This document shows, one piece after another, positions 1 through 16,797 of a stretch of 64,000 nt of DNA. Positions within the stretch are counted from its first letter, which is position 1, and every line of letters begins with the position of its first letter. The position numbers were made by a program, and so were the translations under genes. This DNA comes from a virus, in the IMG/VR virus record IMGVR_UViG_3300020045_001036, positions 31,351-95,350 of that record. The stretch is one strand, 5' to 3'. A model generated the notes under the pieces. That model was given only the letters and a program-made list of their open reading frames with translations. It searched no databases and was not told where the DNA came from.

Positions 1-10
1 TTGCACAACA

Positions 11-89
11 AAATAGAGTAGTTAAAGTTAAGTTACTTCAAAAAATATGGATTTTTAAACAACAAACTTAACTCCTGTTCTCTCTATTT
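11..89 (+). ncRNA. Structured repeat RNA copy 1 (Y RNA/YrlA-like)
   Basis: Outer stem AAATAGAG/CTCTATTT, internal loop TAGTTA / CCTGTTCT, inner stem AGTTAAGTT/AACTTAACT, conserved AGTTACTTCAA at 31-41. Confidence 0.7.
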
Positions 90-12164: not shown

Positions 12165-12479
12165 ATGTCAAATACAAGACCAGCTACTGCTGTAGCAAAA
12201 CCAACTTACTTAGAGTTAATTTCACAAGATGAAAAAGAAGTAAAAATTGAAGGATTGAAAATTGAAGCTCAAAGAGCATCTATTGGGGTACAAACAGTTG
12301 TTTTGGAACTAAATGGTAAAATCTCATTAGCTAAAATTGCACTTTCTGCAGCTCAAAAAAGAGTTCCTTATAGTGTACAAGCAGAATTTGATGCAGTTCA
12401 AGCTTTAGAGAGCTTAGAATCTAAATTAGAGTTTGCTAAAACTATCAAAGATGAAAGATTCTCAGATGTAACAATCTAA
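12165..12479 (+). CDS. Coiled-coil hypothetical protein
   Basis: Heptad-rich helical sequence immediately upstream of the Ubl gene. Confidence 0.65.
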   Translation: MSNTRPATAVAKPTYLELISQDEKEVKIEGLKIEAQRASIGVQTVVLELNGKISLAKIALSAAQKRVPYSVQAEFDAVQALESLESKLEFAKTIKDERFSDVTI

Positions 12480-12525: not shown

Positions 12526-12945
12526 ATGAGAGTTATTAAAGTATATTCAACAGTAGGTGCATCAGGAGAAGTTGTAACAAATGTAGAAACATTAAGAGAA
12601 TTGAAGCCAATTCTAACAAGTAAAGGTATTGATATTACTGGTATGAAACTAGTGGTAGGGGAAACAAGAAATGAGTTATCTATTGATGAAGCAGTTCTTC
12701 CAACGGGGGATTTCAAATTATATTTGATGCCTCAAAAGACTAAATCTGGTAGCCTTGAGGATCAAGTAGAAGAAGTTGAAAGTATTGTGTATAGAATTGA
12801 AGGTAAGTTAGATACTGTTTTATCTATATTACAAAAAGGAGTAGGAGCTTCTAGCAGCCCATCTTTAAAAGTTCTAAGAAGTGCAGAAGATGAAGCAGCT
12901 ATGAGAGATATGGCAGCATTATCTGGTGAAAACAGAGAATGGTAA
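12526..12945 (+). CDS. Ubiquitin-like (beta-grasp) protein precursor with C-terminal extension
   Basis: Residues 1-75 follow a beta-beta-alpha-beta-beta-beta pattern (RVIKVY..., TLRELKPIL, MKLVVG, FKLYLMP) ending KTKSG75; context of E2/JAB/E1 genes. Confidence 0.65.
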   Translation: MRVIKVYSTVGASGEVVTNVETLRELKPILTSKGIDITGMKLVVGETRNELSIDEAVLPTGDFKLYLMPQKTKSGSLEDQVEEVESIVYRIEGKLDTVLSILQKGVGASSSPSLKVLRSAEDEAAMRDMAALSGENREW

Positions 12946-12953
12946 TAATAACT

Positions 12954-12995
12954 AAGAGAGAGGCTATCCATTAGGGTGGTCTCTTTCTTTTTTTT
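12954..12995 (+). terminator. Intrinsic terminator between the Ubl and E2-like genes
   Basis: AAGAGAGAGGCTATCC-ATTA-GGGTGGTCTCTTTCTT followed by a T run. Confidence 0.8.
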
Positions 12996-13004
12996 AACTA
13001 CAAC

Positions 13005-14207
13005 ATGAATATAGAAATATTAGAAAGAAAGTTAAGAACTGGGTCTAGATCTAGAGATTTTCAATGGTATAGAAAATTGTTTGTAAAAGATCGATTGTAT
13101 ATAGGAGCTGATCCTATGACTGCGGCAGTTTTTGAACATTTTAGACTAGCAGTAAAAACTGTAGAAGAAATATACCCGGGAGCTTGGGATATAGAATTTG
13201 GTGTGGATAGTTATCAATACCTAGATAATAAAGTTATAATAAATCTTAGAGGTATAAATATAAAATTTCCAGAAGTTACAATAAGAAATTCTGTAAGAAA
13301 AAGTCATTTAATTAAAGATCTATTTATATTGACTAGATTTAGAATCTATGATAATAAATTAAGAATAGAAGGTGTGTATGGTACCAGAACTACTTTAACC
13401 TATGCAGAATATAATAGTAGATACCTACATAGTCACCTAAATAAAAATAGAATAGATCCTTCGTATGAACATTTTTATTTCCAAAAATTCTGTACAGGAT
13501 CTGGTTCTATTAATATTGCTATGGCGGATTTGAATGCCCAAGGATTTAATGCTGAAAGATTTATAAGTTATCTTTTAAATTTAGATACATTAGCTTCATG
13601 GGAATCTTTAGAGGGAGTACCTTATGTAAAGATAGCTAGTATTAATTCTTTAGAAGAAGGTACACAAATGTATAACTCAGCTAGAAGTGATGTTGCAAAA
13701 ATGTTTATTACTGCTTTAAAAAGATTTGCAACTAGTGTTTATAAACCGGAAATTGATTTTATGTTAGAACACTCTGGAGTATCTCTTGCAGATAATGATA
13801 GGTATAAAGAATTTTTACACAGAGTGCCTTTAACAGACACAGATAAGAAATACTTATTATGCTTTAAGAGTGAAGAGGGTGTATATTACTCTTATGGACA
13901 AACTCCAAGAGCTGCACCATTACTTTTATATCCTAATAAATATCTATTTCAAGGAGAAGAAATAGAAATTAAAATAACAAATCCTCCAGAAAATGCAACT
14001 ACTGAAATACAGTATGAGTTTCATCCAAAAATTAAATTAGAAATTAAAAAACAATTAGAATATGCAGCCAATAAAGCAATCCTTAGAAAGACTACAGTTG
14101 ACAGATACAAAAATTCAACTAGTGATATCAGAGAGAATCCTCAACCAGATCCAGTACCTGTGCCAACAGATAGCGAAAGTGGAGTGGAGTGGGATATTGT
14201 ATTATAG
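13005..14207 (+). CDS. Putative prokaryotic E2/UBC-like conjugating enzyme
   Basis: YLHSHL...QKFCTG (HxH/HPN-like motif followed by Cys), then helix and WESLEGVPY; sits between Ubl and JAB genes. Confidence 0.55.
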   Translation: MNIEILERKLRTGSRSRDFQWYRKLFVKDRLYIGADPMTAAVFEHFRLAVKTVEEIYPGAWDIEFGVDSYQYLDNKVIINLRGINIKFPEVTIRNSVRKSHLIKDLFILTRFRIYDNKLRIEGVYGTRTTLTYAEYNSRYLHSHLNKNRIDPSYEHFYFQKFCTGSGSINIAMADLNAQGFNAERFISYLLNLDTLASWESLEGVPYVKIASINSLEEGTQMYNSARSDVAKMFITALKRFATSVYKPEIDFMLEHSGVSLADNDRYKEFLHRVPLTDTDKKYLLCFKSEEGVYYSYGQTPRAAPLLLYPNKYLFQGEEIEIKITNPPENATTEIQYEFHPKIKLEIKKQLEYAANKAILRKTTVDRYKNSTSDIRENPQPDPVPVPTDSESGVEWDIVL

Positions 14208-15276
14208 TATAAATGGGTCAATTAAAGATCCTGGTGCTATGATATTAACAGTAGAAGATATTCTACCAATGAATAAAGGTACACAAGCTTACACAGAATA
14301 TAATTTAGATGAAAGAGTTATCGATTATATGATGGATAATGAAACTATGGAAAAAGGTTGGAAAATGGGGCACATACATAGCCATAATACCATGGGAGTA
14401 TTCTTTAGTGGTACAGATTGGTCTGAACTAGAAGATAATGCACCACATCATAATTTCTATTTATCTCTTATTGTAAACAACTTTATGGACTTTTGTGCTA
14501 AAGTATGTTTCATATCTGAAGTAAAAGGTACTAAAGATTTTGAGTTCATGGCTAAAGATGAGGAAGGTAATGAATATGTGTATATGGCCAAACCTTATGA
14601 AGTTAAACAAAAGAAACTAATAGTATTTGACTGTGATATTAAATCACCAGTATCAGCTATAGCAATAGAAGAAAGTTTCAGAACTAAAGTAACAGGTATT
14701 ATTACAGATGCAGAAAAGAAAGCTGCAGCACTTGTAGCAGCTAGAGCTGCTAATCCATCTACTACATCTTATGCTGGATGGGATGGAGGACAAAGAGGTG
14801 TTATTCAAGACCCTAAGAAACATATGGGTAAAGTTATTCCAATGACTCCTGCACATGGCTCAGAGATTAAAAGATGGACACAAGCAGATTTTAGTTCTTC
14901 TGTAAAAACATCTGTGGGAGATGCACAAGATTTAGAAGATACAATAGAAGATTTTGCTCAACATATACTATTATTAGGTAAAGATTTGGAAACTTTTGTA
15001 GACTTAGAAGATGTATGTGAACATTATGCTAAATATAAAGTGTCCCATGATTTTGTAGCGGGAGAAGTTGTAAAACAATATTTTGAGTTGTATAGTAGTT
15101 TCTTTAAAGATTCTAAAGAAGAAGATGAGATGACTGCATTTATAGTTAACACTGAACTAGTAATAGATGAGTATAGACATGAAGTTAAAATGGCAGATTC
15201 TGACGATGTATCCGGATTACTTACTAAAGTAGCTGATAGTTTAGATATTATGCTATCTGCATTTAAAACAATTTAG
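14062..15276 (+). CDS. JAB/MPN+ metallo-isopeptidase with long C-terminal extension
   Basis: EWSG catalytic Glu and HIHSHNTMGVFFSGTD = HxH-x7-S-xx-D JAMM motif. Confidence 0.88.
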   Translation: MQPIKQSLERLQLTDTKIQLVISERILNQIQYLCQQIAKVEWSGILYYSINGSIKDPGAMILTVEDILPMNKGTQAYTEYNLDERVIDYMMDNETMEKGWKMGHIHSHNTMGVFFSGTDWSELEDNAPHHNFYLSLIVNNFMDFCAKVCFISEVKGTKDFEFMAKDEEGNEYVYMAKPYEVKQKKLIVFDCDIKSPVSAIAIEESFRTKVTGIITDAEKKAAALVAARAANPSTTSYAGWDGGQRGVIQDPKKHMGKVIPMTPAHGSEIKRWTQADFSSSVKTSVGDAQDLEDTIEDFAQHILLLGKDLETFVDLEDVCEHYAKYKVSHDFVAGEVVKQYFELYSSFFKDSKEEDEMTAFIVNTELVIDEYRHEVKMADSDDVSGLLTKVADSLDIMLSAFKTI

Positions 15277-15277
15277 T

Positions 15278-15391
15278 ATGAAATGTGAACATTGTAAAAA
15301 AGAAAAAGAGACAGTAGAAACAAGACCTACCAGAAATGGAGATTGTAACTATTGTGAAGAATGTTATGAGGTACAAATATTAATGAGTTAA
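15278..15391 (+). CDS. 37-aa zinc-finger microprotein
   Basis: Manual translation MKCEHCKKEKETVETRPTRNGDCNYCEECYEVQILMS; fills the gap between JAB and E1 genes. Confidence 0.6.
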   Translation: MKCEHCKKEKETVETRPTRNGDCNYCEECYEVQILMS

Positions 15392-15394
15392 AAT

Positions 15395-16120
15395 ATGAAT
15401 TTAGAACAAGCAGGTAGATTTAAAGATGCACCATGGTTCCCTCTAGATGAGGTAAATGTAATTGTAGGTGGTGTAGGTGGTATAGGTTCATGGTTAACAT
15501 TAATGTTATCTAGAGCCGGATTTATACCAATGGTGTATGATTTTGACACATTTGAGATACATAATATGTCAGGTCAGTTAGTACCGGAAAGATTAATAGG
15601 TACAATTAAAGTAGATGCAGTAGCAGAAGTAGTAAAAGAATTTACTGGAACTACGATACATACCTTCAATGAGAAGTATACAGCTGAGTCAATGTCTCAT
15701 CACTATGTATTCTCTGGGTTTGATAATATGCAAGCTAGAAAGGATATGTTTAAAGCTTGGTGTGATTATGTAGTAGATTGGCAAGCTGAAGGGCATAAAG
15801 CTAAAATGTTAGACACTACATATCTTCAAGACATACCAATCTTTATAGATGGTAGACTCTTAATGGAGCAAATGCAGATATTCTGTGTTACTCCAGATAG
15901 AATTGAAGACTATAAGAAACATTTGTTTGATGATGCTGAGGTAGCAGAAGCTCCTTGTACATTGAAACAAACATCACATTCAGCAGCTATGATAGCTTCT
16001 CATATGGTAGGCTTCTTTACTAACCACATGACTAATGTATATGCTAAGGATGTGATTAGAAATGTTCCATTTCAATGGGAATACTTTATTCCTCTTGATT
16101 TAATAACAGTAGAAGAATGA
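15395..16120 (+). CDS. ThiF/E1-like adenylating enzyme
   Basis: VGGVGGIGS, YDFDTFEIHNMSGQ, K..AV, FDNMQAR, FIDGR motifs and candidate catalytic Cys in EAPCTLK. Confidence 0.9.
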   Translation: MNLEQAGRFKDAPWFPLDEVNVIVGGVGGIGSWLTLMLSRAGFIPMVYDFDTFEIHNMSGQLVPERLIGTIKVDAVAEVVKEFTGTTIHTFNEKYTAESMSHHYVFSGFDNMQARKDMFKAWCDYVVDWQAEGHKAKMLDTTYLQDIPIFIDGRLLMEQMQIFCVTPDRIEDYKKHLFDDAEVAEAPCTLKQTSHSAAMIASHMVGFFTNHMTNVYAKDVIRNVPFQWEYFIPLDLITVEE

Positions 16121-16797
16121 CAGCATCACAAATAATTTACATTCCAGATCTTTCCAGTTATGTATATACCAACTCTACTTACTTAACTCATTTTAGAGGT
16201 TCTAAAACAGGAACCTCTGATTGTAACTTTTATGTGCCACTACATGCTATAATGGCACATGAATTACTTACATTTGATGTTGGTATTAGAGTGATGGAAT
16301 ATAAAACTTGTAGTATACCTATAGACTATCAAAGGTCATGTTTTAGTAGATATGATGCATTTTTAAGTATACTACTAAATGGTACTTATGCAGGAAGTTT
16401 TAAGTACTCTGTAGCAGGAGAGATCTGCTATGTTATAGTACAAAGAGGTATTATTTTAAATACTGAAGGAGAGATTCTTATGTGCTTAGCACTAGATAGG
16501 GATTATGTGATGAATACAGATACAAATACAATTAGGAATAACCCTGATGCAAAGAAAGGTGCTGTATTTATTAGTAATGACTATGTAAACAATCCTAAAT
16601 ATAAGAATTTAAAAAAGAAAATAGACGCAATATATGTAGCTGAATGTTTAGCTTTAGGTATGGATGTTATCCAAACTGAGAAGATAGATAAATGGCTATA
16701 TAAGAACAACTTTAGTGCAATGAAATTTAAAACAGTTGCTGCACAGCAAAAGTTTTTAAAAGAAGATGTGCCTAAAGAAATGATAAAAGAATTATAA
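16117..16797 (+). CDS. Hypothetical protein coupled to the E1 gene
   Basis: ATGA overlap with the E1 stop codon. Confidence 0.7.
   Translation: MTASQIIYIPDLSSYVYTNSTYLTHFRGSKTGTSDCNFYVPLHAIMAHELLTFDVGIRVMEYKTCSIPIDYQRSCFSRYDAFLSILLNGTYAGSFKYSVAGEICYVIVQRGIILNTEGEILMCLALDRDYVMNTDTNTIRNNPDAKKGAVFISNDYVNNPKYKNLKKKIDAIYVAECLALGMDVIQTEKIDKWLYKNNFSAMKFKTVAAQQKFLKEDVPKEMIKEL

What the first reader, a model, noticed from the sequence alone, without database searches (positions are those of the whole stretch)
12526..12995. Ubl made as a capped precursor and apparently over-transcribed relative to its enzymes
Seen: the presumptive conjugating Gly75 (codon ends 12750) is internal and followed by a 64-aa tail with a heptad pattern (LEDQVEEVESIVYRIEGKLDTVLSIL); a strong intrinsic terminator lies right after this gene and before E2/JAB/E1. 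Inference: JAB must cleave after G75 to activate the modifier, the tail may oligomerise or act separately, and partial termination gives the modifier-over-enzyme ratio expected of a conjugation system.
Basis: partly seen in the sequence, partly recalled or inferred. Interest (0 to 1): 0.7.

Follow-up and report, generated by a model that had tools for sequence, protein, structure and literature searches.

The report
Phage ubiquitin-like protein made as capped precursor
A 95-kb phage of Flavobacterium-type hosts makes its own ubiquitin-like tag with the reactive glycine buried inside the protein. A conserved transcription stop signal separates this gene from the enzymes that would trim and attach the tag, a layout shared by hundreds of related phages and not described in any paper I could find.

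Summary
ORF 12526-12945 encodes a 75-residue ubiquitin-fold domain ending in an invariant T-K-S-G. Gly75 aligns with ubiquitin Gly76. A 64-residue tail follows, and a strong intrinsic terminator (12954-12995) ends 9 nt before the E2-like gene.

Comparative data:
- 495 family representatives carry the domain, in every listed hit at the N-terminus and ending in K[TV]K[SA]G.
- Their tails run from 1 to 276 residues and are mostly unrelated to each other.
- One lineage with a complete cassette has only a 3-residue cap.
- Nine distinct lineages keep a non-homologous GC hairpin plus T-run in the Ubl-E2 gap.
- A complex prediction places residues 68-78, spanning Gly75-Ser76, against the JAMM active-site residues of the neighbouring JAB (0.76 against 0.00 for the best control).

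Cleavage by JAB to expose Gly75 is therefore well supported but not shown.

Within this phage's clade the tail keeps a conserved heptad helix, an acidic helix and a terminal Trp, so it is more than a disposable cap.

I rate it a new variant of a known kind; the closest precedents are Bil pro-Ubl processing and ubiquitin fusion precursors. Earlier first-reader notes of this scan on this same genome describe the cassette. The scan has not found it on other DNA.

The parts
12526..12750 (+). Ubl beta-grasp domain, residues 1-75, ending in invariant T72-K73-S74-G75
   Evidence: AF2 model has strand-strand-helix-strand-strand-strand order with pLDDT 72-81. Foldseek top hits are NEDD8, ubiquitin and ISG15. 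VIA aligns model 2..75 to ubiquitin 1ubq 1..76 with Z 8.4 and rmsd 2.6 over 70 residues. Invariant columns are listed.
12751..12945 (+). C-terminal cap/tail, residues 76-139 plus stop. Heptad amphipathic helix 77-102 (12754-12831), Ser-rich linker 105-120, acidic helix 121-133 (12886-12924), terminal Trp139
   Evidence: Secondary structure (pLDDT 43-58). The a/d positions, E121, D122 and W139 are conserved within the 34-sequence clade. Tails across the family are unrelated and 1-276 aa long.
12954..12995 (+). Intrinsic terminator: 16-bp stem, 4-nt loop, 8-T run ending 9 nt before the E2-like ATG
   Evidence: Equivalent hairpin plus T-run lies in the Ubl-E2 gap of L001, L003, L004, L005, L007/8, L009-12, L013 and L014/15.
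13005..14207 (+). E2-like protein (400 aa); UBC-like core at about 36-220; invariant H142, H144, C163, E200
   Evidence: Alignment. AF2 pLDDT 81. The top VIA rows are almost all UBC/UEV/RWD folds, Z 4.4-6.0, including Citrobacter BubCD-BubB entry 9eav_D at Z 4.7. Foldseek found nothing significant.
14062..15276 (+). JAB/JAMM metallopeptidase (404 aa), the predicted processing and deconjugating enzyme; overlaps the E2-like gene by 146 nt
   Evidence: E41, H106, H108, S116 and D119 are invariant in 31 sequences. PADLOC JAB model matches at 5e-5. Complex prediction with the Ubl scores 0.76 against 0.00 for the best control.
15395..16120 (+). Minimal ThiF-type E1 (241 aa) with invariant Cys188
   Evidence: Pfam ThiF at 2e-13. 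Distant matches to Uba5 and the NEDD8 E1. Invariant glycine-rich nucleotide-binding motif (GG.GG in the alignment) and P-C-T motif in 8 lineages.
12165..12479 (+). Conserved 104-aa helical protein just upstream of the Ubl, probably co-transcribed; ends in R-F-S-D-V-T-I
   Evidence: Present in WIN, L003, L004, L005, L007/8 and L013. No terminator between it and the Ubl.

Best explanation
The gene encodes a pro-form of a phage ubiquitin-like modifier. Residues 1-75 are a ubiquitin-fold domain whose reactive carboxylate (Gly75) is blocked by a 64-residue tail, so the primary product cannot be adenylated by the E1. The JAMM peptidase encoded two genes downstream cuts between Gly75 and Ser76. The 241-aa ThiF-type E1 then activates Gly75, and the E2-like protein (Cys163) passes it on to target lysines. 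JAB can probably also reverse the conjugation. In this clade, however, it is a conserved helical module that is released or acts before cleavage. The modifier gene is probably the last gene of the primase/104-aa/Ubl transcript. That transcript ends at a strong terminator 9 nt before the E2-like gene. E2, JAB and E1 are therefore made only by read-through, which gives more modifier than enzymes and makes activation of the stored pro-form depend on the scarcer JAB. Shown here: fold, invariance of the Gly, tail variability, terminator structure and its conserved position, and intact catalytic motifs. Inferred: cleavage, conjugation, partial termination.
For: The fold is ubiquitin-like, with Gly75 aligned to ubiquitin Gly76. 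There are 495 family representatives at E<=1e-3; in every listed hit the domain is N-terminal and the match ends at residue 74 or 75 of the query. In a motif scan of 150 of these proteins, 144 matched, mostly with K[TV]K[SA]G, and their tails run from 1 to 276 aa with net charge -35 to +29. All 29 cultured FpV4-like phage hits align only to residues 2-75. FpV4 itself has V-K-S-G followed by a 206-aa tail. L014 and L015, in the middle of 35-41 kb contigs, carry a complete cassette with an 83-aa Ubl that ends K-S-G plus 3 residues. The JAB has invariant E41, H106, H108, S116 and D119. The JAB-Ubl complex prediction scores 0.76 against a best control of 0.00; that mark was reached by 58 of 80 solved complexes and 2 of 110 mismatched pairs. 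The runs agree in at least 58% of contacts and partner pLDDT is at least 78. The interface includes JAB residues 41, 104, 106, 108 and 116-119 and Ubl residues 68-78. As precedent, E. aridi BilC cleaves BilA between Gly97 and Ala98, and the Bil gene order is Ubl-E2-DUB-E1. Terminator: -24.1 kcal/mol, z -5.4; one of three strong + strand terminators in 64 kb; a non-homologous hairpin plus T-run lies in the same gap in eight further lineages, with only 1-4 other such sites per roughly 12 kb locus. T-runs end 9-26 nt before the E2 ATG, which leaves no room for a conventional promoter.
Against: No cleavage product, conjugate or transcript level has been observed. The complex prediction may pass from memory of solved JAB-Ubl complexes, and it used my own alignments with a zinc ion riding along, which differs from the tool's calibration. 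The tail is conserved within the clade, which also fits an uncleaved two-part protein. The Ubl, the E2-like protein and the unknown 226-aa protein downstream of E1 match no PADLOC Bil or CBASS model at E<=1. The E2-like fold match is modest, at Z 6 or less. The promoters of this phage and its host are not known to me, so a promoter overlapping the hairpin cannot be excluded.
Confidence: 0.6

Rival explanations
1. The terminator is an operon boundary or timing switch, not a ratio-setting attenuator. Transcription of the primase-to-Ubl unit stops fully there. E2, JAB and E1 are then expressed later or separately, by antitermination or from a phage-specific promoter overlapping the hairpin. The pro-Ubl would be made first and activated only in a later phase. 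The precursor reading is unchanged.
For: The hairpin is very strong (16 bp, -24 kcal/mol, 8 T's), which in model bacteria usually means efficient termination. A short T-T-A-C-T-A-like motif recurs 8-12 nt upstream of the E2 ATG in five lineages and could be a start signal.
Against: Only 9-26 nt lie between the T-run and the ATG. The sigma-70-type consensus scan lists no + strand promoter-like site in the gap; the nearest downstream one is at 13211. A cassette whose enzymes need their substrate would normally be co-expressed with it.
Confidence: 0.25
2. The protein is never cleaved. It is a two-part adaptor, with a Ubl domain that docks onto the enzymes or onto host factors and a tail that carries the function. 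E1, E2 and JAB would then act on another substrate, as CBASS Cap2/Cap3 act on a CD-NTase C-terminus.
For: The tail has clade-conserved helices and a terminal Trp. In a motif scan of 150 family proteins, 46 of the 144 with a recognised domain end carry a shared [FLM]-x-D-[VILM] motif in their last 10 residues, against a 2.8% background. The same motif ends the upstream 104-aa protein. This suggests that the true C-termini matter.
Against: The invariant Gly sits at exactly the ubiquitin Gly76 position, followed by a sharp drop in conservation. The true C-termini are chemically diverse, which makes them unsuitable as an E1 substrate. The model places Gly75-Ser76 at the JAMM site. No other Ubl-like or Gly-ended candidate substrate is conserved in the cassette.
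Confidence: 0.1
3. It is a sulfur-carrier system of the ThiS/MoaD type. JAB trims the carrier, as Mec+ does with CysO or QbsD with QbsE (my own knowledge of those systems). The E1 forms a thiocarboxylate at Gly75 for a nucleotide or cofactor modification that serves replication.
For: The E1 is a minimal single-domain ThiF-like enzyme, annotated as a thiamine biosynthesis protein in FpV4. The cassette sits among nucleotide-metabolism genes: ThyX-like, ribonucleotide reductase and NAMPT.
Against: A conserved E2-like protein with an invariant Cys is always present. No rhodanese, cysteine desulfurase or sulfur-insertion enzyme was seen in the conserved block. The closest folds are ubiquitin, NEDD8 and ISG15 rather than ThiS/MoaD. 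The domain ends in S-G, not G-G.
Confidence: 0.05

Closest known systems
Bacterial BilABCD (Bil, types I and II) ubiquitination-like defence operons; Chambers et al., bioRxiv 10.1101/2023.09.26.559546
   Same: Gene order is Ubl-E2-JAB(DUB)-E1. The Ubl has a single beta-grasp domain in type II. The JAB pre-processes the Ubl to expose its reactive Gly (BilC cuts BilA at Gly97|Ala98) and also removes conjugates.
   Different: The cassette is encoded by a lytic-type phage in its replication arm, not in a bacterial defence island. The cap is 64 aa here and 1-276 aa across the family, against 1 aa in BilA. The E1 is a 241-aa single ThiF domain rather than a multidomain IAD+AAD+CYS enzyme. The E2-like protein is 400 aa, with H-x-H about 20 residues before the Cys instead of the C-E-H-H order of BilB. 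The Ubl and the E2-like protein match no PADLOC model at E<=1, and E1 matches BilD only weakly at 1.2e-5.
Eukaryotic ubiquitin precursor genes: ubiquitin fused to ribosomal proteins eL40/eS31, and polyubiquitin with an extra terminal residue (established knowledge)
   Same: The modifier is translated with its Gly blocked by a C-terminal extension that a deubiquitinase removes. In the ribosomal fusions the extension is itself a functional protein.
   Different: The extensions here are hypervariable between lineages and belong to no known family. The processing enzyme is a cognate JAMM peptidase encoded in the same cassette.
Lambda/T1 tail assembly protein I (TAPI) with the TAPK JAB domain; Iyer, Burroughs & Aravind 2006, PMC1779556
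   Same: A phage protein with an N-terminal Ub-like domain, a conserved Gly at the domain end and a C-terminal extension, predicted to be cut at that Gly by a neighbouring JAB.
   Different: TAPI lies in tail-assembly modules and has no E1 or E2. The present family lies in replication modules and always has an E1 and an E2-like protein.
Operon-internal attenuating terminators that set stoichiometry, such as the rplJL-rpoBC attenuator of E. coli (established knowledge)
   Same: A hairpin plus U-tract sits between an abundant upstream product and less abundant downstream enzymes of one transcription unit.
   Different: Termination efficiency has not been measured here. The host and phage transcription machinery are uncharacterised.

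Membership tests
Conjugatable ubiquitin-like modifier (beta-grasp Ubl) | Ubiquitin-type beta-grasp fold | tested here: met
   AF2 pLDDT 72-81 over residues 1-70. Foldseek gives NEDD8, ubiquitin and ISG15 at E 2e-4 to 2e-3. VIA gives 1ubq at Z 8.4, rmsd 2.6 over 70 residues.
Conjugatable ubiquitin-like modifier (beta-grasp Ubl) | Conserved Gly at the end of a flexible stretch after the last strand, equivalent to ubiquitin Gly76 | tested here: met
   G75 is invariant in 34 and in 36 sequences. K[TV]K[SA]G is the commonest domain end among the 144 family proteins in which the motif scan found one. Model 2..75 aligns to ubiquitin 1..76.
Conjugatable ubiquitin-like modifier (beta-grasp Ubl) | Free C-terminal Gly in the translated product | tested here: not met
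   64 residues follow Gly75, so processing is required. This is the point of the finding.
Conjugatable ubiquitin-like modifier (beta-grasp Ubl) | Covalent attachment to target lysines | not testable with these tools
   Needs proteomics. Trypsin would leave a Ser-Gly remnant (+144.05 Da) after cutting at K73.
BilABCD operon | Gene order Ubl-E2-DUB-E1 | tested here: met
   order as stated.
BilABCD operon | Multidomain E1 with inactive and active adenylation domains and a mobile Cys domain | tested here: not met
   The E1 is 241 aa with one ThiF domain.
BilABCD operon | E2 (BilB) with the Cys followed by conserved His (C138...H151; CEHH in type II) | tested here: not met
   The invariant residues here run H142, H144, C163, E200, against C138, E144, H146, H151 in BilB. 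No PADLOC model matches.
BilABCD operon | Encoded by the bacterium as an anti-phage system | tested here: not met
   The cassette lies in a 95,350-bp virus record with terminal repeats. It is a conserved core block of related phages. A pattern scan of 185,579 species genomes found no relatives; sensitivity is limited to the close clade.
Intrinsic (Rho-independent) terminator | Stable GC-containing stem-loop directly followed by a U-tract | tested here: met
   16 bp, 4-nt loop, 8 T's; -24.1 kcal/mol, z -5.4.
Intrinsic (Rho-independent) terminator | Position conserved in relatives more than expected by chance | tested here: met
   Present in the Ubl-E2 gap of all eight other lineages examined, with unrelated stem sequences.
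Intrinsic (Rho-independent) terminator | Termination, full or partial, in vivo | not testable with these tools
JAMM/MPN+ metallopeptidase | E ... H-x-H ... S-x-x-D zinc and catalytic motif | tested here: met
   E41, H106, H108, S116 and D119 are invariant in 31 sequences.
JAMM/MPN+ metallopeptidase | Match to curated family models | tested here: inconclusive
   Pfam Prok-JAB scores 13.5 bits against a cut-off of 25. PADLOC JAB matches at 5e-5.
UBC-fold E2 | UBC/UEV/RWD-type fold with a catalytic Cys in the loop after strand 4 | tested here: inconclusive
   The top VIA rows are almost all UBC-superfamily folds, but Z is only 4.4-6.0. Foldseek is not significant. Cys163 is invariant.

The most novel reading that the evidence does not exclude
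The Ubl works as a cleavable N-terminal carrier for a hypervariable set of effector peptides. One JAB cut would free both an active modifier and a lineage-specific tail, whether acidic, lysine/alanine-rich or helical with a C-terminal docking motif. This would be a phage counterpart of eukaryotic ubiquitin-fusion genes. Tail diversity would reflect an arms race with hosts, and the terminator would ensure that both products outnumber the enzymes.
Probability: 0.25. Interest if true: 0.8.

Novelty: new variant of a known kind. Interest (0 to 1): 0.62.

Why it matters
Ubiquitin-like conjugation in bacteria has so far been described as a host defence (Bil, CBASS Cap2/Cap3). Here a large family of phages carries its own complete set, and every searched paper left it undescribed.

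Three design features are visible from sequence alone: a blocked modifier, a cognate peptidase and a conserved internal terminator. They suggest two levels of control, abundance and activation.

They also give concrete handles for experiments. Cultured FpV4-type Flavobacterium psychrophilum phages carry the same arrangement. Trypsin digestion should leave a diagnostic Ser-Gly remnant on target lysines.

The hypervariable tails on an otherwise strongly conserved modifier are unexplained and may mark a host-interaction surface.

Tried and rejected
I could not check whether the very short family members P0196, P0252 and P0255 are complete genes. Scans of viral contigs for P0196 and P0252 found nothing. 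The scan for P0255 gave L014/L015, which do show a complete 83-aa gene.
- Complex prediction could not be reached six times before it ran.
- I first thought that the invariant H, H, C and E of the E2-like protein equalled the 'CEHH' signature of type II BilB. The order and spacing differ, so I dropped this.
- I tested whether the upstream 104-aa protein is homologous to the long tails of other lineages (a fusion or fission). A profile search found no similarity (best E 0.15 in a database of 150 proteins). Only a short C-terminal motif is shared.
- I tested whether the 41-aa ORF after the short Ubl of L015 is a detached tail. No significant similarity was found, so only its position suggests it.
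- Pfam finds no domain in the Ubl, in its tail or in ten long-tailed relatives.
- A profile of the E2-like family finds no solved structure by sequence, and Foldseek on its model is not significant.
- No conserved promoter-like motif was found upstream of the Ubl gene in eight lineages.
- Six literature searches found no description of a phage-encoded Ubl/E1/E2/JAB system or of this FpV4 gene block.

Full report
**Setting.** The window is bases 31351-95350 of a 95,350-bp virus record with direct terminal repeats, estimated complete. Its nearest cultured relatives are the roughly 90-kb FpV4-type phages of Flavobacterium psychrophilum, genus Fipvunavirus. The finding lies in the + strand replication and nucleotide-metabolism arm. 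That arm carries a DnaB-like helicase, a Sak4-like protein, a primase, a RusA-like resolvase, a ThyX-like protein, ribonucleotide reductase and NAMPT.

**Observation.** ORF 12526-12945 encodes 139 residues. Gly75 (codon 12748-12750) follows K-T-K-S and is itself followed by 64 residues. Residues 77, 81, 84, 88, 91, 95, 98 and 102 are all hydrophobic, a 4-3-4-3 heptad spacing. In an alignment of 34 clade members (50-81% identical), these positions are hydrophobic in 76-100% of sequences, while the positions between them are acidic or polar.

The terminator is a 16-bp stem with a 4-nt loop at 12954-12989, and an 8-T run ends at 12995. Its free energy is -24.1 kcal/mol, against -10.6 +/- 2.5 for shuffles (z -5.4), and no shuffle reaches it. 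With one criterion applied to the whole window, only three strong + strand terminators exist in 64 kb, and this is the strongest.

**The domain.** The AlphaFold2 model built from the 34-sequence alignment has the strand-strand-helix-strand-strand-strand order of a beta-grasp, with pLDDT 72-81 for residues 1-70. The linker 73-80 has low confidence. A helix is predicted at 77-104, a disordered Ser-rich stretch at 105-120 and a second helix at 121-133. Foldseek returns NEDD8, ubiquitin and ISG15 (E 2e-4 to 2e-3, 73-76 aligned columns). The VIA second look aligns model residues 2-75 with ubiquitin 1-76 (1ubq, Z 8.4, rmsd 2.6 A over 70 residues). Gly75 therefore stands where ubiquitin Gly76 stands.

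**The family.**
- A HMMER search of 1.84 billion representatives with residues 1-75 found 495 proteins at E<=1e-3. In every listed hit the domain is N-terminal and the match runs to residue 74 or 75 of the query.
- A motif scan of 150 of these proteins found a recognisable domain end in 144. The commonest ends are K-T-K-S-G (70) and K-V-K-S-G (30).
- In those 144, the sequence after the Gly is 1 to 276 residues long (median 126), with net charge from -35 to +29. Some tails are acidic, some lysine/alanine-rich, some helical, and none matches Pfam.
- FpV4 has V-K-S-G followed by 206 residues.
- All 29 GenBank phage hits align to residues 2-75 only.
- In loci L014 and L015, which lie in the middle of 35-41 kb viral contigs, the gene is complete at 83 residues. 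It ends K-S-G plus three residues and a stop codon, and the E2-like, JAB and E1 genes follow.

**The enzymes.**
- **JAB.** The 404-aa ORF has invariant E41, H106, H108, S116 and D119 in 31 sequences. The database gene call starts 45 residues later and would lose E41. The 146-nt overlap with the E2-like gene is therefore real, and a similar overlap is seen in relatives.
- **E1.** It is a 241-aa single ThiF domain (Pfam 2e-13). Eight lineages share an invariant glycine-rich nucleotide-binding motif and an invariant P-C-T (Cys188).
- **E2-like protein.** The 400-aa protein has invariant H142, H144, C163 and E200. A confident model (pLDDT 81) has a core at residues 36-220 that matches almost only UBC, UEV and RWD folds at the top of an all-against-all structural search. 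Z is modest, at 4.4-6.0, and Foldseek is not significant. I therefore treat the E2 assignment as probable, not certain.

**Does JAB meet the Ubl at Gly75?** I folded JAB residues 1-215 with Ubl residues 1-92, using my own alignments and a zinc ion. The score was 0.76 (three runs: 0.76, 0.70, 0.76) against 0.00 for the best of three controls. That mark was reached by 58 of 80 solved complexes and by 2 of 110 mismatched pairs. The runs agree in at least 58% of contacts, and partner pLDDT is at least 78. The confident interface includes JAB residues 41, 104, 106, 108 and 116-119 and Ubl residues 68-78, so the Gly75-Ser76 bond lies on the catalytic centre. Complexes of JAMM peptidases with ubiquitin-like proteins have been solved, so the pass may reflect that likeness. 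It supports binding but does not show it.

As a biochemical precedent, E. aridi BilC cleaves BilA between Gly97 and Ala98 to expose the reactive Gly. Bil operons also have the same gene order, Ubl-E2-DUB-E1. Iyer et al. predicted the same kind of cut for lambda TAPI.

It is established chemistry of E1 enzymes that only a free C-terminal carboxylate can be adenylated. The true C-termini of this family (Trp, Asp, Gly, Tyr, Asn and others) vary too much to be that substrate.

**The tail.** Within this clade the tail is not random. The heptad helix, an S-x-E-D ... hydrophobic-x-D-hydrophobic second helix and a terminal Trp (31 of 34 sequences) are conserved. Outside the clade it is replaced by unrelated sequence.

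Two observations hint at docking roles for the extreme C-terminus. In the motif scan of 150 family proteins, 46 of the 144 with a recognised domain end carry [FLM]-x-D-[VILM] in their last ten residues, against 2.8% of other 10-residue windows. The 104-aa protein encoded just upstream of the Ubl in short-tail phages ends in R-F-[ST]-D-x-x-x. No wider homology between that protein and the tails was found. What the tail does is open: oligomerisation, a separate role after release, or holding the pro-form somewhere.

**The terminator in relatives.** The block primase / (104-aa protein) / Ubl / E2-like / JAB / E1 / unknown protein (226 aa in this phage) / RusA-like is conserved, in whole or in part, in 11 viral contigs and in FpV4.

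In each of eight further distinct lineages (FpV4, L003, L004, L005, L007/8, L009-12, L013, L014/15), the 52-80 nt gap before the E2-like gene holds a GC-rich hairpin followed by a T-run. The stems are unrelated in sequence. Folds of the whole gap give -16 to -23 kcal/mol, and the L015 hairpin gives -21.5 kcal/mol with z -4.5. Each roughly 12-kb locus has only 1-4 other such sites.

In L015 the terminator comes after an extra 41-aa ORF that follows the short Ubl, not directly after the Ubl. The T-runs end 9-26 nt before the E2 start codon. No terminator and no conserved promoter-like motif separates the Ubl from the genes upstream.

The simplest reading is that the Ubl is the last gene of an upstream transcript and that the enzymes depend on read-through. 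That would give more modifier than enzymes. Because JAB is beyond the terminator, it would also tie activation of the pro-form to the scarcer product. This step is inference: I could obtain no RNA data. Full termination with later antitermination, or a phage promoter overlapping the hairpin, would fit the same geometry.

**Comparison and novelty.** Processing of a pro-Ubl by a cognate JAMM peptidase is known (Bil; eukaryotic ubiquitin, SUMO and NEDD8 precursors), and internal attenuators are known. Four things are new here:
- the setting, a phage-encoded cassette that is a conserved core block of a large, mostly uncultured phage family;
- the size and extreme variability of the cap on a strongly conserved modifier;
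- the minimal E1 and the atypical E2-like protein;
- the strictly conserved terminator between modifier and enzymes.

The system fails several Bil membership tests: E1 architecture, E2 motif, PADLOC models and host encoding. I do not file it as Bil, although it most likely works like one. Six full-text searches found no paper describing it. In GenBank the FpV4 genes are 'hypothetical protein' and 'thiamine biosynthesis protein'.

First-reader notes of this scan on this same genome already describe the cassette, the terminator, the gene overlap and a zinc-finger microgene.

**Verdict.** The precursor reading is well supported by comparative and modelling evidence. The expression reading is plausible but untested. 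I rate it a new variant of a known kind, with interest 0.62.

Noticed in passing
window 14062-14207: The E2-like and JAB genes overlap by 146 nt in different frames. The database gene call for JAB starts 45 residues later and would drop the invariant catalytic Glu41, so the overlap is real. Overlaps of about 30-145 nt recur in FpV4 and in the viral loci.
   Followed up: partly
window 15278-15391: A 37-aa ORF with a C-x-x-C ... C-x-x-C-x-x-C pattern fills the JAB-E1 gap. I found no counterpart between JAB and E1 in seven related loci, where the two genes nearly abut. It is therefore an accessory of this phage, not a core part of the cassette.
   Followed up: partly
window 12165-12479; also L003, L004, L005, L008, L013: The conserved 104-aa helical protein just upstream of the Ubl ends in R-F-[ST]-D-x-x-x. 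The same kind of motif ends 46 of the 144 Ubl tails scanned in other lineages, mostly long tails. Among the loci I examined, the lineages with this upstream protein have short tails. No wider sequence similarity was found.
   Followed up: partly
L015 4995-5435 (same in L014): In this lineage the Ubl is 83 aa with a 3-residue cap. An acidic 41-aa ORF starts 10 nt later, and the terminator follows that ORF, 15 nt before the E2-like ATG. The ORF occupies the place of the tail but shows no significant similarity to any tail.
   Followed up: partly
window 12996-13004 and the equivalent sites in L003, L004, L005, L008: A short T-[TA]-A-C-T-A motif recurs 8-12 nt upstream of the E2-like start codon, between the terminator T-run and the ATG. 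It could be a translation or transcription start signal.
   Followed up: no
window 16117-16797: An unknown 226-aa protein overlaps the E1 stop codon by 4 nt. It is conserved after E1 in most related loci (phrog_15446, no known function) and could be an adaptor or a target of the system.
   Followed up: no
window 3209, 30623/30656, 35015, 60059: These are the only other strong hairpin plus T-run terminators in the 64-kb window. One follows the tRNA/ncRNA region, a two-way pair sits where the two gene arms converge, and two lie on the minus-strand arm.
   Followed up: no
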